Source: Selaginella moellendorffii (Eukaryota; Plantae; Lycopodiophyta). Taken from it: DNA of 64,000 bases. Below, in pieces: positions 6,337-33,198 of this stretch. Made by a program: the position numbers and the translations under genes. A model generated the notes under the pieces. The model saw nothing but the letters and a program-made list of their open reading frames with translations, was not told the DNA's origin and ran no database searches. Each line of letters begins with the position of its first letter. Within the stretch, counting starts at the first letter, position 1. The stretch is from positions 521,630 to 585,629 of the forward strand of contig NW_003314276.1 of the NCBI RefSeq assembly GCF_000143415.4, in the 5' to 3' direction.

Positions 6337-6365
6337 ATTGTTAGTTGTTGTTTGCAAAATTATGC

Positions 6366-6695
6366 TATAAGATCCTAAGTTTGGACTTCTTGGGAGGTCA
6401 CCCAACCTAGTACTATTCAACCCAAGGACGCTTAACCCCAAATATCCCAAGACCCTGAACCAATTAGAAAAGGGGGTGCACTTTTATTTATAGGCCTTTT
6501 CCCTATATATTTAAACCCCTATGGATCACTTCTCAAATCGTTCCCTTTGGTTGCTTACAATCCACCACGGCTCCCTACAAGTTCACAGACCCTTAACCAA
6601 TTGGAAAAGGGGGTGCACTCTTGTTTATGGGCCCTTCCCTCTATATTTGAACCCTTATGGATCATCTCTCAAGTCATTCTCTTTGGTTTCTTACA
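6366..6695 (-). mobile_element. Second Cassandra-type TRIM with an internal deletion (LTR 6366-6559, 28 bp internal remnant, truncated LTR 6588-6695)
   Basis: Perfect 5-bp TSD TATGC (6361-6365, 6696-6700). PPT-like tccaccac next to the left LTR. Deletion junction at the microhomology accctt. Confidence 0.85.
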
Positions 6696-10243: not shown

Positions 10244-11275
10244 TGTGAGCCACAAATTTTTCCTTTCCAATTTGCCAGTTTACTTTGTTTATCTAACCAA
10301 TACTACCTTGGCCTTAGTTAAATTCCCTTGCCAAAGTTCTCGCTTATTGTACCAGCTCTTACTTGGTCCTACTTAGTTTTAGCTACTGATTGCACGAGTA
10401 ACGGAGCATTGCCATCCATCCACGGATTCCCAAATCTCTCCCAATCCCTTTCCTCGGGTTAGACTAGACTTAAGGTTCAACTATGCTCCCCATAGGCATA
10501 AACAGCCAAGCACACCAAGCCACCAAGTTCCTAACATCCCTTGGTACAACAAGATTTAATCATGGAACCCTCTAAATCCTAAGTCTTGGGTGCAACACTT
10601 GATTAGGGACACCGGAATTAAACACTGTGGCCTAATAGCCTGGTGTGGGTACCCTTACTCTCCCACTTCCATCCCAAAGGGAAGGTCCAAGCCCCTAGGA
10701 AGGGTGAGAACCAATGAGCTACAAGGCACTCAAGTGGGACACCACTCCACATGAGCCAGTTGGTTTCCCTTCTGGGAGTGGGAGTTGCTTTTGAGCACTT
10801 CCTTGGGTAGCCCCTTTGGCGCCACCCGAGTCCATGCTCACTCCCACCCAAGGCCCCTCAGCCCCAGTCTCAACCTCAAGTCAGTTTGGAAGCACCACTA
10901 GAGAGTTCTTTCAAGACTAGTTCCTAGACCTCACTACCCTTAGTATACTTTTAGTATTCAAACTTGGTCTTGGACTTGACCTCAGACTCAATCTCGAACT
11001 CGATCTTGGACCCGACCTTAGACTCTATCTCCAACTCAATCTCAGACTCGGTCTTGGACTCAATCTCGGATTTCGGACTGGGTCTTGAACTTGGTCTTCA
11101 ACTCGGTCTCGAACTCGGTCTCAAACTTGGTCTTGGACTCGATCTCAGACTCGGTCTCGAACTCGGTCTTAGAATTGGTCTCAGACTCGGTCTCATCCAA
11201 TGAACTCTATATCATTTTTATCGTGCTTTCAGGGATCTTTTAGCCTTTGACACCTCAGAAAGTTGGTTCCTTACA
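10244..11275 (-). repeat. 3' LTR of Gypsy copy A
   Basis: tgtgagccacaaat...ggttccttaca, homologous to 22004-23167. Carries a ~70 bp internal deletion. Confidence 0.92.
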
Positions 11276-11433
11276 ACTCCATCTGGGGGCATCCCCCCAC
11301 TTAGTGGTGTGCCTAAGTTAGCCTCCCCAGCCAAGAGCCCATAACAATAGAATATATGTGTCCCTATACCCCTCCCCTCACCACGCCCTAGTATGGGGTT
11401 GGGACTTGAACCCAGCCTTGCTTTACTAGAGGG

Positions 11434-12869: not shown

Positions 12870-14637
12870 TGTAAGTGACTAATTTTTCCATTCTACTTGA
12901 GTCACTTAACCACACCTCCGACCAATTGGAGGAGTCTCACTCACAACCTCCATAAGTCCTATTTCAAACTTGGGTTTGCTAGCCCCGAGAATGGCATCCC
13001 CGCCACCCAACCTTTGCACTTGGTCCAAGTGCTCCACGTGACCGATCCCATGACTGACACTCCAAGGTACCCCCAACATATCAGCCCGTTACGCTAAAGC
13101 CATGCCCATTCACCTTGGTCACACTGGTGGTCTAACACCACCTCCATCACAGTCCCGTCCCTAAAAGACTGGGCCATCTGTTCATGAGTGATCATCCCAG
13201 ATCCACTCCTTAGCATCCTTAGGATGCCAACAGACATGGGGAATAGCCTTCCCCCAATGTCCCTTTTCTGGTCCCCACCAAGTCCCTTTACTGTCCATGG
13301 CCGTGTTCACCAACACTACCACTGGATCGAGGCCCGCAGGCCCGACCACTAAGTCCCACGGTCCTCTGGGACTTCCTCACCACACGACTGTGTCCTTGGT
13401 CACTACCCTAGAGGACTGCTCCTCTTCCTTTCCACAGTCTGGGCCTTTGGGACAACATTTCGGAACACCGTGGCCTTACGCGAGCCACCTGGGTACTCTC
13501 CCCACCTTTCGCCTTTAGGTGCTCTAGCCATGGGCTTAGAGCGAGGTTCCATTGAGCCACGCCTGGTATCTAAGTAGGTAGTGCCACCCACACTTGGACT
13601 GGAAGCACGGCCAGTTGATCTCCCGGGGGAACTAGAGCCGGCTCTTGAACACTTCACCAAGCTACCCCGCTTGTCGGTCCGTATTCACTTTAGTCTTGGA
13701 CTTCCCAGTGGTCAGTTCATCACCCAACACTGGGTCTGGCCTTCCTGGGCCAAACTGGCCTTTCCTGGCCAAACTGGCTCCACTGCAGTCCTCCCCCTTA
13801 CTATACTTTTGGAGCTCACCAAACCCCCCAGGGTCTGGGAGACGAACGCTTTGGGCTTTCACCCTCTCAGACTCGAATTCGGACTCGGACTCGGACTCGG
13901 ACTCGGACTCGGACTCGGACTCGGTCTCGGCCTCCGCCTCGGTCTCGGTCCCGGTCCCGGTCTTGGTCTCGGTCTCGGTCCCGGTCTCGGTCTTGGTCTC
14001 GGTCTCGGTCCCGGTCTCAGCCTCGACCTCGGACTCCATCTCGGGTCCTTCTCAGACTCCATCTCGGATTCCATCTCGGGTCCATCTCGGACTCCGTCTC
14101 GGTCCATCTCGGACTCCATCTCGGACTCCACTTCGGACTCCATCTCGGACTCCATCTCAGACTCCACCTCGGACTCCATCTTGGACTCCATCTCGGTCCA
14201 TCTCGGACTCCATCTCGGACTCTGTCTCGGTCCATCTCGGACTCCATCTCGGACTCCACCTCGGACTCCATCTCGGACTCCGTCTCGGTCCATCTCGGAC
14301 TCCATCTCGGGCTCCACTTCAGACTCCATCTTGGACTCCGTCTCAGTCCATCTCGGACTCCATCTCGGACTCCATCTCGGGTCCATCTCGGACTCCATCT
14401 CGGGTCTATCTCAGACTCCATCTCGGTCCTTTTTGGGTCCCTTTTTGGAGCCTCACTTATTGCTCGCTTCGTGCTTGTTCCTCGAGCACTTTGTTAGGAG
14501 TTCCACTCCTGCTCTCGACCTTCCAAGTCGGAGCTTTTAGTCCAAACGGGTCACGCTCGTTTGGTTTTTGCTTCAGCCACTACCACGTGGCACTCTTTCC
14601 AGCTCCACTTTGGGGCCTAGGGATTTTGTGTCTCACA
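12870..14637 (-). mobile_element. Solo LTR (family 2, 1.77 kb)
   Basis: TGTAAG...CTCACA with perfect TSD CAAGG. Homologous to 20677-22003 + 29568-29698. Confidence 0.9.
13868..14430. repeat. Degenerate hexamer/dodecamer array (ggactc, ggtctc, ggactccatctc) within the LTR U3 side
   Basis: Directly visible. Related arrays at 10960-11200, 21545-21920, 22800-23090, 29200-29490 and 32915-33120. Confidence 0.95.
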
Positions 14638-14870
14638 CAAGGATCCACGGTGACAGTATATCCAAATCTCATCCTATGATCACATGCGCTACAGAGGGTC
14701 AGGACTCAAACCCAACCTTTGTAGAATACGTTTGGATTCGACATTCCCGTGGGGAGTCAGGTGTAGTTTCTTATGTCTAGTCGACCTAGCTAACCCATGC
14801 TAATTATCTTATCTTTAGTGCATGTTTGGGTCCTAACATACGACATTGCTCAATTTTGCAAATAGATTCT

Positions 14871-16514
14871 TTAATTGAATTTTGCATAAGTACATAGAGT
14901 TTTACCTTGCAAAAATTCCTCCACTAGATCTCGCGTATTCACTAGGTTCTCCTTTAGTTCCCATGTTGCTTCACAGTGTAGAAATCCTTTCCACTTCACA
15001 TGGAACTCCCTCACCTTGCGTCTTTGTCACTTGCTTTTATGCACATTGAGGATGGCCTCAATTTTGTATTCCTCTTCCCCTTGGATAACCTCAAGTAAAG
15101 GTGTTACTTAAGTGGATCCTTAAGGTATGGCTTAAGTAAGTTCATATGGAACACAGGGTGCATTTTCCCCATCTCTCAAGGAAATCAAAGGTAATAAGCC
15201 ACCTTACCAATTCATGCCTCAATCTCGTAAGACCCCACAAACCTACTTAAGGAACTTAATATTAGTTTGTTTCTAGGAATATATGCATTTTTACCTTTGG
15301 GTCAGCTTTTGGTTAATCCCACTTGGTAGCTTTAGGTTCTTGGTTTTCAGACACACCTTCTCCCCAAGTTAGAACTCTACATTTTGGTGCTTTCGGTTTG
15401 CATACTTGGTTTGCCTTTGTTGAGCCCGTTCTAAGGAATCCCTCACTAGATTCCAAATGTTGAGTTCCAAATGTTGAATGCCTCCACTACAGGTAACTCT
15501 TCATAATACTCGGCTATGCCGAGTTCCACACCTTCAATAGCTCACCCATTGATGACTTCCCATGGACTCACCCAAACCCCTCACTTGAAGGGAGTCCCAT
15601 GATGAAGTACATCGTAAGATATTTCTACAGACGATCTGGAATTGAGATGCTTTGTAACAAGCCCCCACTAGCATTAGCCATAGCTTTGACCTGTTGACAT
15701 GTTGGATATGTCTTTGCATAGTCTTGGATGTCCTTAGCCATGTCTGGCTAGTGATACTTCCTCTTGAGTAAGCCCATTGTTTTGGGCACTCTGCCGTGTC
15801 CCGCAAAAGGTCTGTCATGACACTCTTCTAAGGCTACCTTCCTTAGTTCCCCTTTTGGAACATACACCCTCATTTGTTTATAATAGATGAGTCCATTGTG
15901 TTCTGCATAACTTGTTTTCTCTTCCATTGGCAGCTCACCTTTCTAGTGAGCTTTCTGTGCCTCTTGGTTCCTTAGCAACACTTCTTATGCTAGATCATCG
16001 TTCTCATACATTGTTTGCACATCATCCCAAAAGGTTACTATCGCGTTAGATATTGCCGACTTCAAGCTGGCCTTTCGACTTAGAACATCTGCCACGATGT
16101 TGCTCTTCCCAGGTTTATATAGAATCTCACAATCAAACTCGGCTAAAGCATTAGCCCACCGACCGTGTTTCCCTCTCAGGTTGGGGTATGACAAGAAGTG
16201 TTTCATTGCCACATTATTTGTGTAAACTTTGAAGTGTCCCCCAAGGTAGTGTCACCACTCCTTGAGTGCCTTGAGCACCGCAAACAATTCTTTCTCGTGT
16301 GCAGGCCACTTTCACTAAGCCTTATCTAACTTTTTCGAGAAGAATGCTACTGAATGGTTGTCTTGCTTCAAAACTACACCCAACGCAAAGTCTGAAGCAT
16401 CTGTTTCTAACTCAAAGTCTTTATTAAAGTTTGGTAATGCCAACACGGGAGCCTTCCTCAACTTCCCTTTGAGGTGGACAAATGTTGCCTCGCATTCCGC
16501 TGTCCATACCATCT
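14871..16514 (-). pseudogene. Copy A pol remnant: RNase H, integrase (core deleted) and chromodomain
   Basis: ETDASDFALGVVLKQ and YKPGKSNIVADVLSR. Colinear with copy B 23572-25655 except for a ~420 bp deletion near 15571. Many stops. Confidence 0.88.
15243..15294 (-). other. Homologous 52-nt GT-AG intron in copy A
   Basis: CAAAG|GTAAAA...ACTAAT...TTCCTTAAGTAG|GTTT. Same position and length as in copy B. Confidence 0.85.
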
Positions 16515-17679
16515 TGCTTAATACCAGCATGTATTACCCTTCCCCTCATTAGCACTTATCCAATATTCGTCAAGGGTTGGACACCGAAGGCTCACCTTGC
16601 CTTGTCCATCCTCTAAGGAGTATAGTGTTTCTGATATAGAGATTCATTTGACCGGTTCTCTACCTTTTATTGGTTTAGCTCTCGCAATACCCATTAGAGA
16701 CACCTTCTCTAGCTCAATCCCACTACTCATTCTCGAGTAGTCTCAACTTCTATTGACATAACCAGTTCACCTTAGAACTTTTAATTTTGACTTCTCGAAG
16801 TCAATTTTTTTTGGTGTCTCCGACACCTTTCATTGCATATATTGTGCAACTTCACTTCCCCATCCTAGGAAGTTCTCCATTTGAGAGCACTATCATCCTC
16901 CTTTCTATTTTGTGCTACCTTTGGCACCAAGTTCCAACTATTGTAAGTTGTGCTAAAGCTATCCATAGCCCTATCATTTAGCTACTTTGCCGCTCCCTCT
17001 CTTGAAGCTTTCACATTTGCCAACTTGGAGCATTTGGGAATCCATCCTTGGAAGCACACTTCCTTTCTCACAATCCGTTAGCATCCAATACATTAGTGTT
17101 CCATGCCTAACTTTGCCATTTGGATTCCTTCCAATGAATTCCATGGCCCACACTTGGCCACTAGTCCTTTGCTTTTATCTATTGATTGTTGCACTGAGCA
17201 ATATAGGATCACGACCTCTATTTTCGAGGTATCCTTTTGGTTCCATAGCAAAGGTTCTACTTTGCTAAGTCTAGAGGGTGCTCACCCCCAGTAGGTCTTT
17301 TTAGCATTTTCTGCTACAATCTCCATCCACGGCCCAACTTTGCGACCCTCCTATGGGTCTCTCCTAGAGACTACTTTCTTGGACTTATTATACCATCGTA
17401 TTGGCACAACTAATTTCCCTTTAGGTGTCCTTCCCACTTAATCACCTTGACCAAGCCACACCATTATCAATAGTTCAAATCAACACTTTGAACTAGGAAT
17501 CATATTCCTTAACCCAAACAAAGACCTTATTCTTGTTTAGCCACAAGATCACCTAGTGATTTCATCTCGACCTCTTAATAGGTCTTTCAGACCCTTTTAA
17601 ATTGTTGGCTATGACCCCGGGGGCATCCCCCACACTTGGTAGTGTGCCCAAGCCAACCCTTCCAACCAAAGATCTATAG

Positions 17680-17874
17680 TGTAAACTCCTGAGTTTGGAC
17701 TTCCCGGGAGGTCACCCAGCCCAGTACTATTCAAACCCAAGGACGCTTAACCCCAAATATCCCAAGACCCTTAACCGATTGGAAAAGGGGGTGCACTCTT
17801 GTTCATGGGCCCTTTCCCTCTATATTTGAACCCCTATGGATCGTCTCTCGAGTCGTTCCCTTTGGTTGCTTACA
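17680..17874 (-). mobile_element. Cassandra-type solo LTR (195 bp), the best-preserved copy
   Basis: TGTAAAC...GCTTACA with perfect TSD TATAG. CpGs retained. Confidence 0.93.
17697..17751 (-). promoter_or_regulatory. 5S rRNA-derived Pol III type-1 internal promoter (A-box, intermediate element, C-box) inside the LTR
   Basis: Reverse complement GTTAAGCGTCCTTGGGTTTGAATAGTACTGGGCTGGGTGACCTCCCGGGAAGTCC matches plant 5S rRNA nt ~51-105 (48/55 against the angiosperm sequence as I recall it). Confidence 0.9.
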
Positions 17875-20800
17875 TATAGCAACTGAGATTAGGTGTCCCC
17901 ATCTCATTCCCCACGTCATTGGTGCCCTTTGCACCAAAGTATTCAAGTTAGATATGCCGAGCTTTCACTCTAAGCAATCTAACCATGCATCATGACTCTA
18001 GAGCATCCCCAACTTAGTGGTGTGCCCAAGCCAGTCTCCTCACTAAGAGTCCATGACCACCAAAATATGAGTATCCTCATACTCCAAACCATCACCACGC
18101 CTTAGTGGTTTGGGACTCGAACCCAAGCACTAGAGGGTCCGGACTCGAACCCAACCTTCATATATGCATCTATGAATAGCATCACCCTAGATGCCTGGCA
18201 TGACTCCCCACGCCGGTGCACCAATTTATACCTAAAGCGCGTTACAGATCATAGCTTAGGAACCTAATCCCTCCAAATTGCCAAGTCCTCTCACTTGACA
18301 AGTCTATGATCATGCATGGACTCCTCCATGCTTTGCCCCATGGGCCACCCTTTTTGAAATTAGCACCTTTAACTAGGGGATTTATTCCCCTGACTTGCCA
18401 CTCTCACTTAGCAAGTCATCTGACCAATGTAATATGGTTTCATGCATAAGTGTGAAAGTCCTTGGCCATCAACTTTCGTTCAAAGTCATCTCTTTGAACA
18501 CTCGGGAATTACTTCCCCAACCTTGATAGCATTGTCTTATGGCAAGCTTCAAGACCACGCTTTTGCTGTGCCATTCTGATTTTGCACGTTTTATGAAACA
18601 TTCACACTTGGCTTTCTAGGTACTACGCTACCTAGAATTATCTTTGGGAACCTTGAATGAACTCTGTCCCTTAGCTTGCCAAAGCTTGTCCTTTCGCAAA
18701 TCTTCTAATTGCCATATGGTCTAACATGGACAATTCCATGCCTTAGACTCTCCATAGCACTACGGTTGTTAGTAACAATATGCTTGAGCGCCCACTTGAT
18801 TCTCCACTCCCAATTGGCATATGCTCTTCGATTCCTATGGTTTGGTTCTATCCTCTTATTATTTGCTTTTGGCCTCACACATTTCCTTTGGTTATTTGCC
18901 TCCAGACTAGGAAGATAGCTTTGCACTGTCTACCATGCTTTAGCAAATATTCTTAGGAATGAACCTACCCGATAGCCTAGGGAGTGGTTCCTCAATTCGG
19001 GTATGTTCACCTTATAATCCTATACATTGGGATTAACATTGCTACATATAAGCCTTTATATGCCCATCACTAGCCTTGCCAAAATCCCATTTTTGGCTTT
19101 GTCCAATTCGGGTAAATGGGTTTCTCCCATCTTTGCAACTTTGGATGTTTGGATAACACCTTCTATCCATTATTCGCTAAGGACTTAGTCTTTTGGGCCT
19201 TATTTATTGCCCTCGCGACATCAAACACCATCTCCTGGTGTTCTAGAGTGTTTGGGTGTCCTAATGATGGCCTCTTTGACAATGAACATTCCCTTTTATG
19301 ACATTGACTTACTATATCGGCACATAAGCAATTTATCTCCCTATAAGGGTATATTTAACTTCCTTATGCTATTAAAAACTCTTGTGTAGCTACTTACTAC
19401 CAATTTAACTGATTATTTTGCACCTTTTGCTTAGTTGCCTCATAGTTGTCAAGCTCACAACTCATTGCTAGTGCTTCCACACCTCCATCATTATCTGGGT
19501 GACCACACTCGAACTGCATGCCTTCTAACTTAAGCTATACCATTCCCATTTCCATTAGGATTCCTTTGGGAAGGGGTTCTTGTGAACCCGCTAATTTGAC
19601 CTCAAGGCATCACACCTTGATATATTCGGTGTTTCCACACCATTAGCTCCACGAGCCTACCTTTATGACACTTCTTATTTGTGTTTAAGTCTTTGCCAAG
19701 ACTAATATTGCCAACTATCCGTTAGCACTACACTATATAGTTTAGACATAATTTTGTGTTAAAGTTGCTTTCTTTTGGGAACCTTTTTCCCATAACTTTA
19801 GTATGGCACATTTTAGCATCAATGAGATACCCATTGTTCTCACACTTAGATCTTATGATCTTCCCCATCCTTCATGGGGCACAATGGACCTTAGTCCAAA
19901 TGCTTTTTACTAATCCTTTAGGACCATTCCTTCACTGTACTTAGTCATCTAACATTTTTGGACTTTGCCAATCCAATGACCCGTAAGGTCCTATTTTGAG
20001 GTGTCAGCTTGCTAGAATACCACTTTGTGTATTCATGTCTTACTCATAAGGACCATCTTTGCAAGTGTCACTCCAACACTTGATTATTTTCCGTTCCTTG
20101 TGGGCTACCTTTACCCCTTAGGGCTATCCGTCCATATGATGAGAATACCAACTCATCCTCTAAGCACTCCTCCAACTCTTTGGGTTTGTTCCAGCATTTA
20201 TAAAAGGTAGCCCCCACTACCATTTCAAGGACTTATGTCCTCATCCATATTTGACCTCCCATATTCATCAATTGTGGTCTCAAATTCATGAGCACCAGCC
20301 TCAACTATATGAGGGTAGTCTCGTGACTCCTTTATCGTTTTAGAGTCTCTATCTTCCCCATGATCCCAACCATAGTTGTTTACCACAACTACATTAGCCA
20401 ATTTGTTGAATCAAATGCTCATCTGGATCACATTCTCAAGTCCCTAAGGAAAACCTTATACTGTTCCCAAGATCCCAAAGTCATTCCATTTTAGCCCTTT
20501 TCTATCCACCACCTCATCTACAAGTTCATACCTGAACTGTAGTGGAGAGCCATGTCTTCCCGACTTGCTACTCCTCAAGGATAGGCCCACTTCTAAGACC
20601 TTTCGATGCCAACACTAGTAGTGATATACTTCAGCACCAATAAAAGTCGGACTAAGGAACCGCTCTAATACCAAGTTGTAAGCGACTATATTTTTCCATT
20701 TTACTTTAATCACTTAACCACACCTTCGACCACTTGGAAGAGTCTCACTCACAACCTCCATAATCCCTATTCCGAACTTGGGCGTGTTAGCCCCGAGAAT

Positions 20801-23800
20801 GGCATCCCCGCCACTCAACATTTGCACTTGGCCCAAGTGTTCCACATGTTCTATCCCATGCCTGACACCCAAAGGTACCACTGACATATCCGCCCATTAC
20901 GCTAAGGCCATGCTCATTCACCTTTGCTACACTGATGGTCTAATACCACTTGCATCACAATCCCGTCCAAAATTGGGCTATCCATCCACAAGTGGTCATC
21001 CCAGATCCACTCCTTAGCATCCTAAGGATGCCCATAGACATGGGGAATAGCTTTCCCCAATGTCCTTTTTCCAATCCCCACCAAGTCCCTTTCTATCCAT
21101 GGCTCCTTTTCCATTCTACAGTTTGGGACAACATTTTGGAACACTGTGGTCTTACGCAAGCCTCGTGGGTACTCTCCCCGCTTTCCACCTTTGGGTGCTC
21201 TAGCCATAGGCTTAGAGCGAGGTTCTATTGAGCCACGCTAGGTATCCAAGTAGGTAGTGCCACCCACACTTGGATTGGGAGCATCGACCATTCGATCTCC
21301 CGGGGGAACTAGAGCCAGCTCTTGAACACTTCACCAAGCTACCCCGCTTGTCGGTCTCTATTCACTCTAGCCTTGGACTTCCCAGTGGTTATCCCATCAC
21401 CCAACACTTGGGTATAGCCTTCTTGGGCCAAACTAGCCTTTCCTGGCCAAACTGGCTCCACTGGAGTCCTCCCCCTACTATACTTTTGGAGCTCACCAAA
21501 CCCCCCATAGTCTGGGAGACGAATGCTTTGGGCTTTCACCCTCTTAGACTCGAACTCGGACTCAGACTAGGACTTAGACTTGGACTCAGACTCGGACTTG
21601 GACTCGGGCTTGGGCTCGATCTCAGCCTCGGCCTCGGTCTCGGTCTCAGTCTCGGTCTCGGTCTCGGTCTCTTTCCCAGTCTCGGTCTTGGTCTTGACTT
21701 TGGACTCCGTCTTGGGTCCTTCTCAGACTCCATCTCAGATTCCATCTTGGGTCCATCTCAGACTCCATCTCAGGTCGATCTTGGACTCCATCTCAGACTC
21801 CATCTCGGGTCCATCTCAGACTCCATCTCGGGTCCATCTCAGACTCCATCACGGGTCCATCTCGGACTCCATCTCGGGTCCATCTTGGATCCATCTCGGA
21901 CTCCATCTCAGGTCCATCTCGAGTCCTCTTGTGTCCCTTTTTCTAGAGACTCTTTTAATGCTTACTTCATGCTCGTTCCATGAGCACTCCGTTAGGAGTT
22001 CCATGTAAGCCACAAATTTTTCCTTTCCAATTTGCCAGCTTACCTCATCTATTCGACCAACTCTGCCTTGGCTTGTGCTAAGTTCCCTCGCCAAGGTTCC
22101 CGCCTATGGTACCAGCTCCTACTTGGTCCTACTTGGTTTCAGCTACTTACTGCACGAGCAACGGAGTGTTAGCCATCTATCTACGGATTCCCAAATCTCT
22201 CCCAATCCCCCTCCCCGGGTTAGACTGGACTTAAGGTTCAGCTACACTCCCCGCAGGCACAAACAGCCAAGCATACCAAGCCTCCAGATTCCTAACACCC
22301 CTTGGTACCACAAGACTTGATCATGGGACCCTCTAAATCCCAAGTCTTGGGTGCAGCACTTGCTTCGGGACGTCGGGGCGAAACACCGTGGCCTAACGGC
22401 CCGGTATGGGTACCTCTACCCCCCCAGTTCCATCCCGAAGGGAAGGCCCAAGCCCCTAGGAAGGGCGAGGACCAATGAGCCACAAAGTACTCAAGTGGGG
22501 CACCACTCCACCTGAGCCGGGAGCACCGCAGTCGGTTTCCCTTTCGAGAGTGGGAGCTGCTCTTGAGCACTTCCCTGGGTGGCCCCTCTAGCACCACTCA
22601 GGCCCATGCTCACTCCCACCCAAGGCCCCTCGGCCCCAGTCTCAACCTCAAGTCAGTTTGGAAGCACCACTGGAGAGTTCCTTTAAGACTGGTTCCTGGA
22701 CCTCACTATCCCTACTATACTTTTGGAACCCCCTGCAGCCCGCCCCCCCCCCCCTGGGAGACGCACGCTTTGGGCTTTCACCCCTTGACCCGTATTAGTA
22801 TTTGGACTTAGTCTCTGGCTCGATCTCGGACCCGATTTCAGATCCGACTTCGGATTCGGGCTCGAACTCGATCTCGGACTCGATCTCGGACCCGATCTCG
22901 GACCCGACCTCGGACTCGACCTCGGACTCGGTCTCGGACCCGATTTCAGATCTCGGACTCCGTCTCGAACTCGGTCTCGAACTCGGACTCGAACTCGGTC
23001 CCCGAGTCGGTCTCGAACTCGATTCCGGACTCTATCTCGAACTCGGTCCTAGAGTCGGTCTTGGACTCGATCCTCGACTTGGTCGCATCCGATGAACTCT
23101 TTGTCATTTCGGTCAAGCTTTTGGGGATCCTTTAGCCTACGACATCTCGGGGAGTTGGTTCCTTACAACTCCACCACCCATAGAAGAAGTTCGATGCCCA
23201 CATCAAACGTCTCATTTTTATCCTACGACTTGTTGACCATGTCTCCGGGGGCATCCCCCCACTTAGCGGTGTGCCTAAGTTAGCCTCCCCGGCCAAGAGC
23301 CCATGACAACGGAATATAGGTGTCCCTATACCCCTAACCTCACCACGCCCTAGTACGGGGTCGGGACTTGAACCCAGCCTTGCTTTACTAGGGGGTTGGG
23401 ACTCGAACCCAACCTCCATAGAATACGTCTACGGATTCGACATCCCCGTGGGGAGTCGGGCGTAGTGCCCTACGCCTGGTCGACCTATCCAACCCATGCT
23501 AATTAGCTTACCTTCGGCGTGCCTTCGGGTCCCAAAATATGCCACTTGCTCAACTTTGCAAATTGATATTTTTAATTGAATTTTGCATAAGTACATAGAG
23601 TTCTGCCTTGCAGAAATTCCTCCACTAGATCTTGCGTGTTCGCTAGGTTCTCCTCCAGTTCCCATGTTGCTTCGCAGTGTGGAAATCCTTTCCACTTCAC
23701 ATGGAACTCTCTCACCTCGCGTCCTTGTCGCTTGCTCTTGCGCGCATTGAGGATGGCCTCGACTTCGTATTCCTCTTCCCCTTGGATAACCTCAGGTAAA

Positions 23801-23953
23801 GGTCTCACTTGGTCTTTGCGAAGTGGATCCTCAAAGTACGGCTTGAGTAAGTTCACGTGGAACACTAGGTGCATCTTCCCCATCTCTCGAGGAAGTCGGA
23901 GTCGGTAAGCCACTTTACCGATTCGTGCCTCAATCTCGTAAGGCCCCGCGAAC

Positions 23954-24005
23954 CTACTTAAGGAACTCAAGATCAATTCATTTACAGGAATACATGCATC
24001 TTTAC
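23954..24005 (-). other. Predicted 52-nt GT-AG intron immediately before the integrase GPY motif of copy B
   Basis: CAAAG|GTAAAG...TTCCTTAAGTAG|GTTC. Removal gives KLTQRFAGPY. Confidence 0.88.
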
Positions 24006-24423
24006 CTTTGGGTCAACTTTCGGCTGATCCCACTTGGTAGTTTGAGGTTCTTGGTGTTCAGCCACACCTTCTCCCCAACTTGGAACTCTACATCCCGACG
24101 CTTCTGGTTCGCGTATTTGGTTTGCTTTTGTTGAGCCCGTTCCAAGGAATCCCTCACTAGATTCCAAATGCTGAGTCTTTCCGCCGTGAATGCCTCCACG
24201 GCGGGCAACTCTCCATGATACTCGGCCATGCCGAGTTCCACAGGACCTTCAATAGCTCGCCCATTGATGACTTCCCATGGACTCACCCCGATACTCGAAT
24301 GTGGTGAGTTGTTATAACGCATTTCTGCAAGTCCCAAATGACTTACCCAATCGGTCTAGTCTCCCGAGACATAGCATCGCAAATAATCCTCCAGCTGCCT
24401 ATTCACCCTTTCCGTTTGTCCGT

Positions 24424-24469
24424 CTGTCAAGAAGTGTTAGTGCCAACAACTTGACTTAATACCCCATAC
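24424..24469 (-). other. Predicted 46-nt GT-AG intron in the integrase catalytic core of copy B
   Basis: ATAG|GTATGG...CACTAAC...TTCTTGACAG|ACGGA. Removal gives STAYHPQIDGQTERVNR. Confidence 0.85.
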
Positions 24470-27400
24470 CTATCTGTGGGTGATAGGCTGTGCTGAATTT
24501 CAACTTGGTGCGATACTGTTCTAGGAGAGTCCTCCAAAACCTACTGGTGAAGATCTTATGTCGATCTGAGATGATCTCTTCCGGTCTTCCCCGCACTTGA
24601 ACCACTTGTTCGAAGAACAGCTTCGCCACACCTTCCACATCCACCTCCGTTGTGGTGGGTATGAAATGTGCCATTTTCGAAAATCGGTCCACCACCACAA
24701 ATATCGCATCAAACCCCTCGCTTTGGGGGGAGTCCCGTGATGAAGTCCATCGTAAGACATTTCCACGGGCGATTTGGAATTGGGATGCTTTGCAACAAGC
24801 CCCCACTAGCCTTAGTCACAGCTTTTACCTGCTGACATGTTGGACATGTTTTTACATAGTCTTGGACGTCCTTAGCCATATCTGGCCAATTGTACTTCCT
24901 TTTGAGTAGGCCCATCGTCTTGGGCACTCCGCCGTGTCCCGCAAGAGGTCCGTCATGACACTCTTCTAAGGCCACCTTCCTTAGTTCCCCTTCTGGAACA
25001 TACACCCTCGTTTGCTTGTAATAGATGAGTCCGTTGCGTTCCGCATAGCCCGTTTTCTCTTCCGTTGGCAGCTCACCTCTCTGGTGAGCTTCCCACGCCT
25101 CTAGATTCCTCAGCAACACTTCTTGTGCTAGACCATCGTTCTCATATGCTGTCCGCACATCGTCCCAGAAGGTTGCTGTTGCGCTGGATATTGCTAACCT
25201 CAAGCTCGCTTTTCGACTTAGCGCATCCGCCACGGTGTTGCTCTTCCCAGGCTTGTACAGAATCTCGCAATCAAACTCAGCCAAGGCATTGGCCCACCGA
25301 CCTTGTTTCCCTCTTAGGTCGGGCTGTGACAAGAAGTGTTTCGTTGCCACATTGTCCGTGTAAACCTTGAAGTGTCTCCCAAGGTAGTGTCGCCACTCCT
25401 TGAGCGCCTTGACCACCGCAAACAATTCCTTCTCATGGGCAGGCCACTTCCGTTGAGCCTTGTCCAGCTTCTTCGAGAAGAACGCTACCGGATGGTTGTC
25501 TTGCTTCAAAACTGCGTCCAACGCAAAGTCCGAAGCATCCATTTCTACCTCAAAGTCCTTACCAAAGCCTGGTAATGCCAATACGGGAGCCTTCCTCAAC
25601 TTCCCTTTCAGGTGGACGAATGCCGCCTTGCATTCCGCTGTCCACACCATCTTCCCTTTTCCTGTTTGGTCCGTTAAGGGCAGGGCTACTCTCGAATAGT
25701 GTCTGATAAACTTTCGATAGTAGTTGCATAGCCCCAGGAATGCCCTCAACTCGTGTACATTGGATGGTCGCTCCCATTCCTGGATCGCTTGGACCTTCTC
25801 CGGGTCCACCTTGAGCCCGTCTTGGCCCACCACATGCCCGAGAAACTTTACCTCTTGTTGAGCAAAGTCACATTTGCTCTCTTTAGCATATAGTTTGTGT
25901 TCCCTTAGTTTCTCAAACACCTTTGCCAAGTGTTCGGCATGCTCCTCTAGCGTCTCGCTATAGATCAGGATGTCGTTGATATAGACGACCACGAAGTGAT
26001 CCAAATAGGGTACAAAGATGTGGTTCATTAGCGCTGAAAACGTTGCCGGCGCATTACATAGCCCGAAGGGCATCACCAGAAACTCAAAGCTCCCATACCT
26101 CGTTCGACAGGTTGTCTTCTCGACATCTTCCTCGGCTACCCTGATCTGGTAGTATCCTGACCTTAGGTCAATCCTTGAGAAGTATTTTGCCTTTCCCAAC
26201 CTATCGAACAGGTCCTCAATCCTTGGCAAAGGGTACTTGTTCTTCTTTGTATACTTGTTGAGCAACCGGTAGTCTATGCACATGCGCATAGATCCATCTT
26301 TCTTTTTCACAAATAACACCGGCGCCCCATACGGCGACTTGCTCAACCTAAATACCCTTTGTCCACCAACTCCTCTAGTTGGCACTTGAGCTCCTTGAGT
26401 TCTTTTTCGTTCAAACGATAAGGGGGATGAACCACTGCCTCAGCACCCTCGACCAGCTCAATCTTATGTTCTATCGGTCGTGCTGGGGGTAGCCCCGCCG
26501 GTAGCTCCTCTGGCATGGTATCCTGGAATTGGTCCAACACCCGCTGGATCACTAAAGGTACTTCTTCCATTCCTGTCTTTTTGTCACTCTTCACCGAGAG
26601 TAAGCACAAAAAGGCCGCCTTAGTTCCTTTAGTGAGTTGTCCTCTCGTGGACACCAGGTTTAAGCAGGAATCTTTGGCCTTGCTTTGCCCTACCTTTAGA
26701 TCTTGGGCCTCCACCCTAGATCTTCTTCCTTAGGCATTCGCCAGTACCACAAGGTTTCTACCTTGTCCATGCAGGGCTACCCCGAATCGATTGAACCAGT
26801 CCATTCCGAAGATCACGTCAAATCCCGCCATGTCCAACACAGTGAAATCCATGTCCACCTTCCAAGTCCCCACTTCGACTCTCGCTTGTCGAAGTACCTC
26901 ATCGGTGCTTTGGCTACCTTGAACAAACTCTATAGTCCTTGGTTCGCCTAGCCGCTGCACCGTTAGTCCGGCTTGCCGGACTATGTCTGCAGCCACAAAA
27001 TTATCCGAAGCACCCGTGTCAATAAGGATTTTAACAAAGCTATCTCCGAGCTTCCCTCGCAGGGCTAGTAGATGTCGCGAATGACTCTCTACTAAAGTTG
27101 CTCGTGTAATGAGTAACTTTGAGTTAGGGACTGGATCACATACCTCTGTTTGGACTTCACCCGACTTGATGGCCATATTGGCTCTGGCCTTCTTCGGGTA
27201 GGGACATTCCCTCGAGAAGTGTCCCGCTTCACCGCAGTTGTAGCATACGTTGTTTCCCACGCTGCTATATGACTTGACCTTCTTATCCGTGGGTTTGTCT
27301 CTTTTCGCTTGACTCCCCCACGTACTCGCTCGCTGGCCACCAGATCTGCCTTTCCGGAACCCCGAGGACTCATTCTTAGAGAAACTCTTCTTGAATTTCC

Positions 27401-29698
27401 CTCTGCTAAACGTTCCCCTTGGTTTGGCCCCTTTGCTAAACGTGGATCCTGACCCCGTCGTGCTCCCCTTTCACGGGTTATCGTTGAAATGCACCTTGAT
27501 GGCCGCATCCAATGCTTCTTTGTAGTTGGTCGGGTTCCACCGCATTACTTCGCCGCGAGCCCAGGTTTGCAAACCTGATATGAAGGCATGGAACGCATCC
27601 ATATCCCCCATGTCCGTGACAAGTATCCTCTTTGCCATAAACCCATTCACATACTCCTGAATGGTTCCGGTCTGCTTCAGCCTACTCAACTCGTCCCTTA
27701 GATGCAGAGTAGCATTTGGAGGAACGTAAGTTGCGCGGATCCTCGCCTTCATCATTTCCCAAGTGGCCACCGGTCCTTCGTTGGCCTCTGTTGTTCTCCA
27801 CCAAGACTTGGCATTATCTGCCAAGTATGGTTTTGCACGTGGGACCTTCTCCGAGCTCAGTAATCGTAACGCTCGGAAGTAGTCCTCCATATCGTAAAAC
27901 CAATCCTCCACCACCTTATAGTCATTCACTCCCTTGAAGACCGGTGGGGGCTTTGGTTTGTACTTGGGAACTGCCTGAGGGACTGATTCCACTTCGGTCT
28001 GTTCGACCTTGTCTGGTTTTGCCTCAGTCCCTGCCGAAGGGTCCGCACCTTCTGCGCTGCCAGCATCCGCAATCTTTCGCTTTTTCTTCCGCTTCTCGTC
28101 ACGCTTTAGCTTGTGTACGAGAGTCTCTAGCAGGGCATTGGTCTGTGCCAATTGTCCTTCTAAAACATCCAATCGAGCCTTGGACGACCGAACCTCACCA
28201 CCAGACTCCTGTTTGGAAGTTGCCTCACTGGAGTCCTCCTCATGCAAGGATTCCTCATCCATAGCCTCTTGTTCGACCGGAGGCTCCAGCTCTGGAGGAG
28301 GTTCCGTCTCTACCTGGGTTCGCTTACGTCCTGCCCTTGCCATCTCCCAGCAATCTGCCTCTATCCTTTGCTAGAACTGAGGAAGAGGCTCTGATACCAA
28401 ATTGTAAGCCACAAATTTTTCCTTTCCAATTTCCCAGCTTACCTCGTCTATCCGACCAACTCTGCCTTGGCTTGTGCTAAGTTCCCTCGCCAAGGTTCCC
28501 GCCTATGGTACCAGCTCCTACTTGGTCCTACTTGGTTTCAGCTACTTACTGCACGAGCAACGGAGTGTTAGCCATCCATCTACGGATTCCCAAATCTCTC
28601 CCAATCCCCCTCCCAGGGTTAGACTAGACTTAAGGTTCGGCTACACTCCCCATAGGCACAAACAGCCAAGCACACCAAGCCTCCAGATTCCTAACACCCC
28701 TTGGTACCACAAGACTTGATCATGGGACCCTCTAAATCCCAAGTCTTGGGTGCAGCACTTGCTTCGGGATGTCGGGGCGAAACACTGTGGCCTAACGGCC
28801 CGGTATGGGTACCTCTACCCCCCCACTTCCATCGCGAAGGGAAGGCCCAATACCCTAGGAAGGGCGAGGACCAATGAGCCACAAGGTACTCAAGTGGGGC
28901 ACCACTCCACCTGAGCCGGGAGCACCGCAGTCGGTTTCCCTTTCGGGAGTGGGAGCTGCTCTTGAGCACTTCCCTGGGTGGCCCCTCCGGCACCACTCAG
29001 GCCCATGCTCACTCCCACCCAAGGCCCCTCGGCCCCAGTCTCAACCTCAAGTCAGTTTGGAAGCACCACTGGAGAGTTCCTTCAAGACTGGTTCCTGGAC
29101 CTCACTATCCCTACTATACTTTTGGAACCCCCTGCAGCCCCACCCCCCCTGGGAGACGCACGCTTTGGGCTTTCACCCCTTGACCCGTATTAGTATTTGG
29201 ACTTAGTCTCTGGCTCGATCTCGGACCCGATTTCAGATCCGACTTCGGATTCGGTCTCGGACTCGATCTCGGACTCGATCTCGGACCCGATCTCGGACCC
29301 GACCTCAGACTTGACCTCGGACTCGGTCTCGGACCCGATTTCAGATCTCGGACTCCGTCTCGAACTCGGTCTCGAACTCGGACTCGAACTCGGTCCCCGA
29401 GTCGGTCTCGGACTCGATTCCGAACTCTATCTCGAACTCGGTCCTAGAGTCGGTCTTGGACTCGATCCTCGACTTGGTCCCATCCGATGAACTCTTTGTC
29501 ATTTCGGTCAAGCTTTTGGGGATCCTTTAGCCTACGACATCTCGGGGAGTTGGTTCCTTACATTCCACTCCCGCTCTCGACTTTTCAAGTCAGAGCCTTT
29601 TAGTCCAAACGTGTTACGCTCATTTGGCTTTCACTTTAGCCACTACCAAGTGGCACCCTTTTGGCTCCACTTTGGGGCTTAGGGATTTGTGTCTCACA

Positions 29699-32063
29699 CT
29701 CCTCTAGTGTCTCGCTATAGATCAAGATGTCATCAATGTAGACGACCACAAAATGATCTAGGTAAGGTACAAAGATGTGATTCATCAATGTTGAGAACGA
29801 TGTTGGTGCATTGCACAGCCTAAAGGGGATTACAAGAAACTCAAAGCTTCCATACCTTGTTCAACAGGTTGTCTTTTAGACATTTTCTTTTGCTACCCTG
29901 ATTTAGTAGTCTTCTAACCTTAGGTCGATACTTGAGAAGTATTTTGCCTTTCCCAACCTATCAAACAAGTCTTTAATCCTTGGTAAAGGGTACTTGTTCT
30001 TCTTTGTATACTTGTTGAGCAACTGATAGTCTATGCATATACGCATAGATCCATCTTTCTTTTTCACAAATAACACCGGTGCACTATATAGTGACTTGCT
30101 TAATTTAACATACCCTTTTTCCATCAACTTCTTAAGTTGGCATTTGAGTTCCTCGAATTCTTTTTCGTTCAAATGATAGGGGGGATGAACCACTACTTTA
30201 GCACCCTCAACCAGCTCGATCTTATGTTTTATCTATAGTTCCGGGGGTAATCCCACTAGTATGGTATTTTGGAATTGGTCCAACACCTACTAGATCACTA
30301 AAGGTACTTCTTTTATTCCCATCTTTTTGTCACTCCTCACCAAGAGTAAGCACAAAAATGCTACCTTGGTTCCTTTAGTAAGTTGTCCTCTTGTGAACAC
30401 GAGGTTCAAGTAGGAGTTTTTGGCCTTACATTGCCTTACCTTTAGATCTTGGGCCTCCACCCTGGATCGTTCTCCTGAGGCATTCGTCAGTACCACAAAA
30501 TTCCTATCTTGTCCATGTAGGGCTACCATTAAACGATTGAACTAATCCATCCCAAAGATTATGACAAATTCTGCCATGTCAAATACGGTGAAATCCATAT
30601 CTACTTTCCATGTTCTTACTTTGACTCTTGCTTGTCGAAGTACCTCATTGGTGCTTTGGCTGCCTTGAACAAACTCTATAGTCTTTGGTTCACCCAACCA
30701 CTGCACTGTTAGTCTAGCTTACCGAACTATATCTACAGCCATAAGGTTATCCGAAGCACTCGTGTCAATAAGGATCTTAACAAAGCTACCTCCGAACTTC
30801 CCTCGGACGGCTTATAGATATTGCAAATGACTCTTTACCAAAGTTGCTCATGTAATAAGTAACTTTGAGTTAAGGATTGGATCACATACCTCAATTTGGA
30901 TTTCACCTGACTTAATGGCCATATTGGTTTTGGCCTTCTTCGGGTAGGGACATTCTCTCAAAAAGTGTCCCACTTCACCACAGTTAAAGCATATGTTGTT
31001 TCCCAAACTACTAACAGAATTGACCTTCTTAGTCCCTTTTCGCTTGACTCCCCCATGTACTTGCTTATTGGCCCCTAGATCTACCTTTCTGGAACCTCGA
31101 GGACTCATTCTTAGATAAACTCTTCTTGAATTTACCTTTGCCATATGTCCCCTTTGGTTTGGCCACTTTGCTAAACGTGGACCTCGATCCCGTTGTGTTC
31201 CCCTTTCGTAGGTTATCATTGAAATGTAGCTTGATAGCTGCATCCAATGCTTCCTTGTAATTGGTCGGGTTCCAACGTATCACTTCACCACGAGCCCAAG
31301 TTTGCAAGCCTGATATGAAGGCATGGAAAGCATCCATATCACCCATATCTGTGACAAGTATCCTCTTTGTCATAAATGCATTCACATATTCTTGAATGAT
31401 TTCGGTTTGCTTCAACCTACTCAGCTCATCCTTTAGGTGCAAAGTAGCATTCGGAGGAATGTAGGTTGCACAAATCCTCGCCTTCATTATTTCCTAAGTA
31501 GCTACCAGTCCTTCATTAGCCTCTATTATTCTCCACCAAGATTTAGCAATTTTTGTCAAATATGGTTTTGCACATGAAACCTTCTTTGAGCTCAGTAACC
31601 ACAACACTCGAAAGTAATCCTTCATATCATAAAACCAATCCTCCACCACCTTATAGTCATTCACTCCCTTGAAGACTAGTGAGGGCTTTGGTTTATACTT
31701 GGGAATTGCTTAAGAGACTGATTCCACTTTTGTTTATTCGATGTTGTTTCGTTTTGCCTCAGTCCCCACAGTCCACACCTTTTACACTGCCAACATCTGC
31801 AATATATCACTTTTTCTTCCGCTTCTCATCACACTTTAGCTTGCATGCAAGAGCCTCTAGTAGGGCATTTGTTTGAGCCAATTGTCCTAGAATCAAGCCT
31901 TGGATAACTGAACCTCACCACCAAACTCCTATTTAGAAGTTTCCTCACTAGAGTCTTCTTCATGCAAGGATTCCTCATCCATAGCCTCTTGTTCAACTGG
32001 AGGCTCCAGCTCTAGAGGAGGTTTTGTCTCTGCCTTAATTGGTTTATGCCCTATCTTTGCCAT
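29699..32063 (-). pseudogene. Copy A gag-protease-RT remnant
   Basis: CFNCGEVGHFLREC zinc knuckle, ILIDTSAS protease, [18 protein letters not shown] and YIDDILI. Many stops and frameshifts. Confidence 0.9.
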
Positions 32064-32122
32064 CTCTCAACAATCCACCTCTATCCTTTCCTAGAACTGA
32101 GGAAAAGGCTCTGATACCAAAC

Positions 32123-33198
32123 TATAAGCTACAAATTTTTCTTTTCCAATTTGCCAGCTTACCTGGTCTATTTGACCAATATTGCCTTGGCCTTAGTTAA
32201 GTTCCCTTGCCAAGGTTCCCACCTATTTTACCAGCTCTTACTTGGTCCTACTTAGTTTTAGCTACTCATTGCACAAGTAACGGAGCATTAGCCATCCATC
32301 CATGGATTCCCAAATCTCTCCCAATCCCCCTCTTCGGGTTAGACTAGACTTAAGGTTTGGCTACACTCCCTGTAGGCACAAGTAGCCAAACACACCAAGC
32401 CACTAGGTTCTTAACATCCCTTGGTACAACAAAATTTGATCATGGGACCCTCTAAATCCCAAGTCTTGGGTGCAGCACTTGCTTCGGGATGTCGGGGCGA
32501 AACACTGTGGCCTAACGGCCCGGTATGGGTACCCCTACTCCCCCACTTCCATCCCGAAGGGAAAGCCCAAGCCCCTAGGAAGGGCGAGGACCAATGAGCT
32601 ACAAGGCATTCAAGTGGGGCACCACTCCATATGAGCCTAGAGCACTACAGTCGGTTTCCCTTCCGGGAGTGGCAGTTGCTCTTGAGCACTTCCTTGGGTG
32701 GCCCCTCCGGCACCACTCGAGTCGATGCTCACTCCCACCCAAGGCCTCTCAGCCCCAGTGTCAACCTCAAATAAGCTTGGAAGCACCACTGAAAAGTTCC
32801 TTCAAGACTGATTCTTAGACCTTACTATCCCTACTATACTTTTGGAACCCCCTCCAGCCCCCCAACCCCCAAGAGAGACACGCTTTGGGCTTTCACCCCA
32901 CAACCTGTATTAGTATTCGGACTCGGTCTCAGACTTGATCTTGGACTCAACCTCGGACTCGGTCTTAAACTCAATCTTGGACTCAATCTTGGACCCAACC
33001 TCGGACTTTGTCTCAAACTCGATCTCAGACTTGGTCTCAGACCCGATCTCAGATCTCTGACTCGGTCTCAAACTTAGTTTTGGACTCAGTCTTGAACTCG
33101 ATCTCAAACTCGGTCTCACTTGATGAACTCTTTATCATTTTGGTCGTGTTTTCGGGGATCCTTTAGCCTTTGACACCTTAGGGAGTTGGTTCCTTACA
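32123..33198 (-). repeat. 5' LTR of Gypsy copy A
   Basis: tataagctacaaat...ggttccttaca, adjacent to the tRNA-iMet PBS. Confidence 0.92.

What the first reader, a model, noticed from the sequence alone, without database searches (positions are those of the whole stretch)
23954..24469. Ty3/Gypsy chromovirus family with two spliceosomal-type introns in integrase: candidate splicing-gated integrase
Seen in sequence: two apparent frameshifts in copy B integrase are clean GT-AG inserts of 46 nt (24424-24469, with a CACTAAC branch-like site) and 52 nt (23954-24005). Removing them restores HPQ(I/T)DGQTE and KLTQRFAGPY with no extra bases. Their sizes match host introns in this window (46 nt in the peroxidase, 47 nt in ALG12). 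Unspliced RNA would stop at HPQIGMGY*, before the catalytic Glu of DDE, the GPY motif and the chromodomain. Established: LTR elements copy through RNA and should purge introns. The exceptions I know (the Ogre PR-RT intron, copia short-gag splicing, Penelope-like elements) are arranged differently. Inference: the family packages unspliced RNA and makes integrase from spliced mRNA, which would set Gag-RT:IN stoichiometry or give the host a control point. I cannot confirm this is undescribed.
Basis: partly seen in the sequence, partly recalled or inferred. Interest (0 to 1): 0.92.

Follow-up and report, generated by a model that had tools for sequence, protein, structure and literature searches.

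The report
Retrotransposon with four spliced introns
A high-copy jumping gene of the spikemoss Selaginella keeps two tiny introns inside its integrase gene, although copying through RNA should erase them, and public sequence assemblies that are likely RNA show both cut out along with two more, one of which removes the start site for copying, which would explain why only unspliced RNA is copied.

Summary
Both inserts are there as described, and they are spliced. The element is a complete 7,559-bp Ty3/gypsy insertion in Selaginella moellendorffii. Its anatomy matches SM1-Galahad: the published 1,295-aa ORF ends exactly at the stop inside insert 1, and the authors did not call the breaks introns. 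Contigs of runs guessed to be RNA skip the 52-nt insert in 3 of 4 runs and the 46-nt insert in 2 of 4; one raw RNA-seq read skips 46 nt (inferred from depth bins). The same lay showed two further GT-AG introns: 157 nt over the protease active site (2 of 4 runs; splicing gives Gag only, as in EVADE and BARE1) and 66 nt over the U5 end and primer-binding site (1 of 4). The middle integrase exon shows purifying selection in the spliced frame. Likely model: unspliced RNA is the genome, spliced RNAs make Gag and integrase, and loss of the primer site keeps spliced RNA from being copied. Coupling of these splices on one molecule is untested. Ten literature searches found no intron inside an LTR-element integrase; Repbase could not be checked.

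The parts
28403..29562 (-). 5' LTR of copy B (1,160 bp, TG...CA, poly-G tract, 12-bp-spaced repeats)
   Evidence: 1,131 matches, 29 mismatches, 4 gap columns against the 3' LTR
28377..28442 (-). Intron L, 66 nt, GT..AG: last 40 nt of the LTR (U5 end), the primer-binding site and 10 nt after it
   Evidence: joint 28376->28443 in X1, depth 7.86, side 122 (1 of 4 runs); retained in X5 contig 21
28387..28399 (-). Primer-binding site (tRNA-Met type), inside intron L
   Evidence: for place; tRNA identity from PMC3350952 section 5 and recall
27144..28343 (-). gag exon, ATG at 28343, 400 codons, capsid and CCHC knuckle; stop at 27471-27473 in this copy
   Evidence: Pfam PF03732, PF00098
26987..27143 (-). 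Intron G, 157 nt, GT..AG, in frame when retained (protease N-part with DTG); splicing gives Gag + T + stop
   Evidence: joint 26988->27149 with 3 letters between in X1 and X5 (2 of 4 runs); resolved to GT..AG
24470..26986 (-). pol exon: rest of protease, RT, RNase H, integrase zinc finger and core up to HPQ; broken in this copy at 26730-26732, near 26351 and near 24722
   Evidence: Pfam PF08284, PF00078, PF17917, PF17921, PF00665; Ty3 Gag-Pol 7q5b match E 2.3e-08
24424..24469 (-). Intron I1, 46 nt, five codons ahead of the catalytic Glu; in-frame stop at 24456-24458
   Evidence: 46-nt joint in X1 and X4; one X15 read by bin arithmetic; retained in X9, X3, X5 contigs
24006..24423 (-). Middle integrase exon with the catalytic Glu; stop at 24356-24358 in this copy
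   Evidence: 9 of 11 between-run differences synonymous, p 0.0016
23954..24005 (-). Intron I2, 52 nt, just ahead of the GPY motif
   Evidence: 52-nt joint CT..AC in X1, X3, X4; retained in X9 contig 6 and in copy A
23572..23953 (-). Last exon: GPY/F SH3-like part and chromodomain
   Evidence: Pfam PF24626, PF22938, PF00385; 309-nt ATG-to-stop ORF as published
23169..23179 (-). Purine-rich tract before the 3' LTR (likely PPT)
22004..23167 (-). 3' LTR of copy B (1,164 bp)
21999..22003 (.). Target-site duplication TTCCA (other copy 29563-29567)
14693..16515 (-). Copy A fragment (83-86% identical): keeps I2 with GT and AG at 15243-15294; a deletion spans the I1 region
29699..33198 (-). Copy C fragment (83% identical): LTR, gag, PR, RT start; keeps GT and AG of intron L (32097-32162) and intron G (30733-30889)

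Best explanation
This is a copy of a Selaginella Ty3/gypsy chromovirus family, likely SM1-Galahad, that carries four GT-AG introns seen cut out in assemblies of likely RNA runs, two of them inside integrase, so full integrase would be made only from spliced RNA while unspliced RNA likely serves as the genome. Shown: the four introns, their splice joints, their presence in mobile genomic copies, and selection on the middle exon in the spliced frame. Inferred: three RNA classes. (1) Unspliced RNA keeps the primer-binding site and is reverse transcribed; its own ORF stops in I1 after 1,295 codons. (2) RNA that keeps G but loses I1 and I2 encodes the whole 1,557-codon Gag-Pol. (3) RNA that also loses G encodes Gag alone and supplies the Gag excess. 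RNA that enters the splicing path most likely loses L too, and with it the primer site and U5 end, so spliced RNA cannot be primed. That filter would let ordinary host-sized introns persist in pol.
For: Joints for I2 in 3 of 4 runs, I1 in 2 of 4, G in 2 of 4, L in 1 of 4, from 4 studies; X1 shows all four, and one 2,500-nt X1 contig carries both integrase joints. All four read GT..AG on the sense strand, each about 1.1-1.4% by chance, and all are U-richer than their flanks, 0.29-0.37 against 0.11-0.18. In X15, on record as RNA-seq, depth bins sum to one 150-nt mate spread over 196 nt, a 46-nt skip in the I1 bin. Family-wide retention: ATG to the stop in I1 is 1,295 codons and the last ORF is 309 nt, both equal to the published SM1-Galahad reconstruction from many copies; X9 has one gap-free 691-nt contig, depth 46.9, over both inserts; copy A keeps I2, copy C keeps L and G ends; B has a 5-bp TSD and LTRs 2.5% apart. 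The X5 contig shares X1's alleles yet retains I1 with a 1-nt length change. Middle exon: 9 of 11 between-run differences synonymous, 34% expected, p 0.0016. Inside G, third-position changes between B and C are depleted, 5 of 52 against 148 of 596, p 0.011.
Against: The four contig runs are RNA only by the tool's guess. Raw RNA-seq gave 8, 1 and 0 reads from about 12% of each run, and no joint reached the listing threshold. L splicing rests on one contig of one run. No contig links L splicing to I1 or I2 splicing. No molecule that keeps G and loses I1 and I2 was seen; X1 shows only the G-spliced form, and G retention in X5 is inferred from a depth bin (4.36 against about 1.1). The deepest spliced contig (X3, depth 59.2) splices I2, retains I1 and runs into unrelated sequence at 24503, so it comes from a rearranged copy. 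Third-position excess between A and B is not significant in the middle exon (13 of 27, p 0.08) or last exon (20 of 47, p 0.12). The window copy is dead, and no genome was held to count copies.
Confidence: 0.66

Rival explanations
1. The introns are real and needed, but they persist for another reason: Gag packages only unspliced RNA, a separate promoter makes an unspliced genome pool as in BARE1, or the introns hold replication signals. L splicing is then a side event.
For: L splicing was seen in 1 of 4 runs. BARE1 separates pools by promoter and R domain. Intron interiors are not free: I2 is 42 of 52 identical between A and B, close to its flanks at 128 of 150 and 107 of 130.
Against: L ends are conserved in copy C at 83% overall identity. 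L removes exactly the U5 end and primer site with a 10-nt margin. X1 shows no L-retaining contig, though contigs drop rare forms.
Confidence: 0.2
2. The family is non-autonomous or dying: the inserts broke integrase, the intact sister SM2-Galahad moves it in trans, and the host spliceosome happens to remove the inserts.
For: No intact SM1-Galahad copy was found in the published survey, and SM2-Galahad has one uninterrupted 1,577-aa ORF with hundreds of copies. Expression is very low in three 2026 runs. The window copies are all broken.
Against: Both removals restore the frame exactly although each insert is 3n+1. The exon behind I1 is under purifying selection in the spliced frame. GPY and chromodomain motifs are intact.
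Confidence: 0.08
3. The joints come from DNA: insert-free genomic copies (ancestral or processed) present in runs wrongly taken for RNA.
Against: Four different GT..AG skips; one removes the primer site and one the protease active site, neither viable in an LTR copy. X5 has the same alleles unspliced. X9 shows no branch at either insert. One read of a recorded RNA-seq run skips 46 nt.
Confidence: 0.05

Closest known systems
SM1-Galahad, Galadriel-clade chromovirus of Selaginella moellendorffii (PMC3350952; section 5 read whole, passages, supplement searched)
   Same: About 7.5 kb, LTRs over 1 kb with poly-G, tRNA-Met PBS, ORF of 1,295 aa with no chromodomain, two short ORFs behind it, the last 309 bp with the chromodomain. 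Host confirmed by two window proteins whose cluster mates are S. moellendorffii.
   Different: The paper has 0 occurrences of 'intron' or 'splic'; it reports the broken ORFs without explaining them. ORF2 is 318 nt here against 316; LTRs 1,164/1,160 against 1,076/1,146. No sequence was available to align.
SM2-Galahad (same paper)
   Same: Closest sister family in the same genome, same domains, 1,577 aa against 1,557 codons here once I1 and I2 are discounted.
   Different: One uninterrupted ORF, so no frame-breaking integrase introns. Whether it has L or G was not testable.
Short-Gag splicing of Ty1/copia: EVADE (PMC5580714, passages) and BARE1 (PMC3735527, passages and part 1 of 2 of the discussion)
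   Same: Intron G removes protease sequence, shifts the frame and stops right after Gag; it is about three times the usual host intron length, as the Arabidopsis copia introns are.
   Different: Those are copia elements; the EVADE paper found no such conserved splicing in Arabidopsis Ty3/gypsy. Their Pol comes from unspliced RNA, so the genome RNA encodes everything. Here it cannot encode integrase.
Ogre intron between Gag-PR and RT (seen only second-hand in PMC6317226, PMC4408406, PMC12786077 passages; the primary paper was not held)
   Same: Ty3/gypsy element that keeps an intron in its genome and needs splicing to translate downstream enzymes.
   Different: One intron of about 274 bp between two ORFs. 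Here two 46-52-nt introns lie inside the integrase domain, plus L and G.
CRR of rice (second-hand, one sentence in PMC3735527) and foamy-virus spliced pol mRNA (PMC7828637, passages)
   Same: A chromovirus that splices; a retrovirus whose Pol needs a spliced mRNA.
   Different: CRR splicing removes rt. Foamy virus removes gag with one large intron. In retroviruses the spliced RNA keeps the PBS and loses the packaging signal (recalled); here it loses the PBS itself.

Membership tests
Ty3/gypsy chromovirus | LTRs with TG..CA, TSD, domain order PR-RT-RH-INT | tested here: met
Ty3/gypsy chromovirus | GPY/F part and chromodomain at the integrase end | tested here: met
   PF24626, PF00385; reached only across I1 and I2
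Galadriel clade | RT-RH-INT phylogeny with Galadriel references | not testable with these tools
   No named references could be fetched (empty); placement rests on PMC3350952
SM1-Galahad | Host S. moellendorffii; 7.5 kb; LTRs over 1 kb with poly-G; tRNA-Met PBS | tested here: met
   LTRs somewhat longer than published
SM1-Galahad | ORF1 1,295 aa without chromodomain; two short ORFs of 316 and 309 bp | tested here: met
   1,295 codons, 318 and 309 nt
SM1-Galahad | Over 80% nucleotide identity to the published sequence | not testable with these tools
   Supplement text holds no match for the name
U2-type spliceosomal introns | GT..AG ends, host-like length, U-rich interior | tested here: met
   G is longer (157 nt); a CTAAC near the 3' end only in I1
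U2-type spliceosomal introns | Precise removal in RNA, presence in DNA | tested here: met
   Joints, retention; run types partly guessed; one read in a recorded RNA run
U2-type spliceosomal introns | Lariat formation or spliceosome dependence | not testable with these tools
   needs bench work
Copia-type short-Gag intron (for G) | Splicing removes protease and creates a stop just after Gag | tested here: met
   400 codons then T and stop; works like it, but in a gypsy element
Copia-type short-Gag intron (for G) | Early termination of the spliced RNA | tested here: inconclusive
   X1 contigs run on past the joint through pol with the spliced form only, but contigs do not show single molecules
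Ogre-type intron | Intron between Gag-PR and RT ORFs | tested here: not met
   No joint or extra ORF break between PR and RT other than this copy's 1-nt break

The most novel reading that the evidence does not exclude
An LTR retrotransposon that protects its introns by splicing out its own primer-binding site: every translated RNA is made uncopyable, which frees pol to gain and keep ordinary spliceosomal introns, even inside the integrase catalytic core, and hands control of integrase to the host spliceosome.
Probability: 0.5. Interest if true: 0.92.

Novelty: new variant of a known kind. Interest (0 to 1): 0.83.

Why it matters
Intron loss during copying is the classic proof of retrotransposition, and a 2025 review says plant LTR elements generally lack introns, naming Ogre and EVADE as exceptions. 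Here a family of hundreds of copies carries two host-sized introns inside integrase, so its genome RNA cannot encode its own integrase. The primer-site intron suggests a simple new way to separate RNA for translation from RNA for copying. It also extends short-Gag splicing to a gypsy element. With an uninterrupted sister family in the same genome, it gives a tractable case of intron gain inside a retroelement. It explains a published oddity, a family with 'no intact copy', and warns that ORF-based TE annotation will call such families dead.

Tried and rejected
No genome was held, so no genome-wide copy count. Three word-seeded protein searches (middle exon, RH-INT part, Gag) found no hit at their cut-offs; weak evidence, not used. 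Scans of metagenome and viral contigs found no relative, so nothing is known about other Selaginella species. No listed holder was on record as RNA in the run search; X17 gave 0 reads, no test. The middle exon has no PDB match. No TATA or AATAAA motif by simple pattern in the LTR, so the start site is unmapped. One fold of the U5-PBS region had no shuffle control and is not used. Private decay insertions in copy B: rejected (copy A, X9 contig, published ORF length). A fungal host, suggested by the CTAAC motif: rejected. Intron gain after domestication: rejected, the introns sit in a copy with paired LTRs and a TSD. TE-derived origin of the introns: I2 has an AGGT repeat across its ends, and a variant letter at 24472 seen in X9 gives I1 a 5-nt repeat, but these overlap splice consensus and prove nothing. 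Papers checked by passages with nothing relevant: PMC2864245, PMC4558846, PMC7197481, PMC13148404, PMC5718144, PMC7730604, 10.1101/2020.02.20.956714. Two papers were not held. Earlier scan notes: none on this genome or sequence; the 8 of 35 shown concern other things.

Full report
Observation. On the minus strand, 24424-24469 (46 nt) and 23954-24005 (52 nt) begin GT and end AG. Their flanks read HPQIDGQTE and KLTQRFAGPY with no spare base. With I1 discounted the integrase spacing is D-X35-E; with it retained the frame stops at 24456-24458. I compared separately translated exon pieces with the 150 best hits of a full-library search (28-47% identity, unnamed). At site 1, 42 of 42 piece pairs in 40 proteins were contiguous. 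At site 2, 32 of 41 pairs in 39 proteins were; 5 had 2-6 residues between and 4 were offset by -30. The remaining proteins did not align up to both sides. So the inserts are additions to a conserved frame.

Element and host. Copy B spans 22004-29562 with LTRs of 1,164 and 1,160 bp, 29 mismatches apart, and a TTCCA target duplication. Pfam finds Gag, zinc knuckle, protease, RT, RNase H, integrase, SH3-like and chromo domains in gypsy order. Of three window host proteins looked up, two are in the collection, with cluster mates from Selaginella moellendorffii. Novikov et al. (PMC3350952, section 5 read whole) describe SM1-Galahad: 7.5 kb, hundreds of copies about 95% alike, no intact copy found, a reconstructed ORF of 1,295 aa lacking the chromodomain, then ORFs of 316 and 309 bp. 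In the window, ATG 28343 to the stop inside I1 is 1,295 codons, and the next ORFs are 318 and 309 nt. The match is by anatomy, not alignment. It implies that the family reconstruction contains both breaks. The paper never uses 'intron' or 'splic'.

The inserts are family-wide. Copy A (83-86% identical) keeps I2 with GT and AG; a deletion covers its I1 region. Run X9, of unrecorded kind, has one gap-free 691-nt contig at depth 46.9 across both inserts. I infer X9 is shallow DNA in which mainly repeats assembled. No genome was held, so copies could not be counted.

They are spliced. I laid 8 of the 23 listed runs. Four contig runs from four studies, RNA by the tool's guess, gave four joints and no others. 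A 52-nt skip with CT..AC ends appears in X1, X3 and X4. A 46-nt skip appears in X1 and X4; the tool places it 3 nt off, which fits a variant letter at 24472 (seen in X9) that repeats the intron end. One 2,500-nt X1 contig carries both. The X5 contig shares X1's alleles but retains I1, with one extra base inside it, and starts within I2. X3 splices I2, retains I1 and runs into unrelated sequence at 24503. Three recorded RNA-seq runs gave only 8, 1 and 0 reads from about 12% of each run, and no listed joint. In X15 four consecutive bins hold 19+67+21+43 = 150 bases over a 196-nt span, which is one mate skipping 46 nt in the I1 bin (my inference). Two reads, one each in X15 and X16, cover 23981-24005 inside I2.

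Two more introns. The joint 26988->27149 with three letters between (X1, X5) resolves to a 157-nt GT..AG intron G at 26987-27143 with two letter differences at the exon end. Retained, G is the protease N-part including DTG. Spliced, it leaves 400 Gag codons, one more codon and a stop. The joint 28376->28443 (X1 only) is a 66-nt GT..AG intron L that holds the last 40 nt of the LTR, the primer-binding site and 10 more bases; X5 retains it. Copy C keeps the ends of both. A random skip of each length reads GT..AG at 1.1-1.4% of positions, and all four introns are U-richer than their flanks. Twelve predicted host introns here are 43-62 nt, so I1, I2 and L are host-sized and G is about three times longer.

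Selection. Of the 40 variant rows shown (237 were not shown), 11 lie in the middle exon and differ between runs; 9 are synonymous in the spliced frame, against 34% expected (p 0.0016). The 8 rows private to the window copy show no third-position excess. The A/B comparison gives a weaker, non-significant excess in the two downstream exons (p 0.08 and 0.12). Within G, third-position changes between B and C are depleted (5 of 52 against 148 of 596, p 0.011), as expected where coding and splicing signals overlap.

Mechanism. Shown: four introns, spliced and unspliced forms, presence in mobile copies. Inferred: unspliced RNA is the template for reverse transcription; RNA keeping G but losing I1 and I2 gives the 1,557-codon Gag-Pol; RNA losing G gives Gag alone. 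If an RNA with the primer site but without I1 and I2 were copied often, intron-free autonomous copies should take over. The simplest filter is L: once spliced, the RNA cannot bind the primer tRNA. This coupling is not shown. L rests on one contig, and no molecule keeping G while losing I1 and I2 was seen; X1 shows only G-spliced sequence, and G retention in X5 is inferred from a depth bin. I give the full model 0.66, other ways of keeping real introns 0.20, a trans-mobilised broken family 0.08, and DNA artefact 0.05.

Comparison. G works like the short-Gag introns of EVADE and BARE1, both copia; the EVADE study saw no such pattern in Arabidopsis gypsy elements (passages; passages and discussion part 1 of 2). 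Ogre needs splicing of one inter-ORF intron, and CRR splices out rt (second-hand passages). Foamy viruses make Pol from a spliced RNA (passages). A 2025 review names Ogre and EVADE as the notable exceptions to intron-free plant LTR elements (passages). Ten searches (listings, with passages read in 14 papers) showed no intron inside an LTR-element integrase and no intron removing the PBS; only two papers name Galahad with Selaginella. The library lacks most subscription papers, and Repbase, REXdb files and the genome paper's supplements could not be seen, so prior annotation cannot be excluded. Rare introns in DIRS/Ngaro and Penelope-like elements are partly recalled (Penelope in a listing); these are not LTR-integrase elements.

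Verdict. A real, RNA-supported feature, larger than first reported: a new variant of splicing-controlled LTR retrotransposon expression. Interest 0.83.

Noticed in passing
window 10244-33198: Nested cluster of related elements. Copy B sits inside an LTR-like sequence of a second type (21627-22003 plus 29563-29699, continuous with 14108-14638), which also ends copies A and C; a further B-type LTR lies at 10244-11281.
   Followed up: partly
window 22710-23070, 29110-29490, 10930-11230, 13780-14440: Both LTR types carry 12-bp-spaced repeat arrays next to a poly-G tract; role unknown.
   Followed up: no
window 23704-24503, run X3: A contig at depth 59.2 joins the integrase tail (I2 spliced, I1 retained) to at least 255 nt of unrelated sequence: a well-covered chimeric transcript from a rearranged copy, possibly driven by a host promoter.
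   Followed up: no
window 28404-28442 and the three other B-type LTRs: The GT donor of intron L is kept in all four LTRs, so 3' and solo LTRs could splice into neighbouring host sequence.
   Followed up: no
window 28588, runs X1 and X4: Both runs have the same 28-nt loose end inside the LTR, and X1 and X5 share a 10-nt gap at 28516: a transcribed LTR variant that differs from the window copy.
   Followed up: no
window 5751-6700 and 17600-18160: Short repeats of about 180 nt in several copies, with pieces resembling the region before the 3' LTR; possibly a small non-autonomous element.
   Followed up: no
window 33300-64000: Ordinary gene-dense host region: alcohol dehydrogenase, two glycosyltransferases, eIF2B-epsilon-like, XAP5, two PPR genes, ubiquitin hydrolase, malate or lactate dehydrogenase, peroxidase, ALG9/12-like, FAE1/KCS.
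   Followed up: partly
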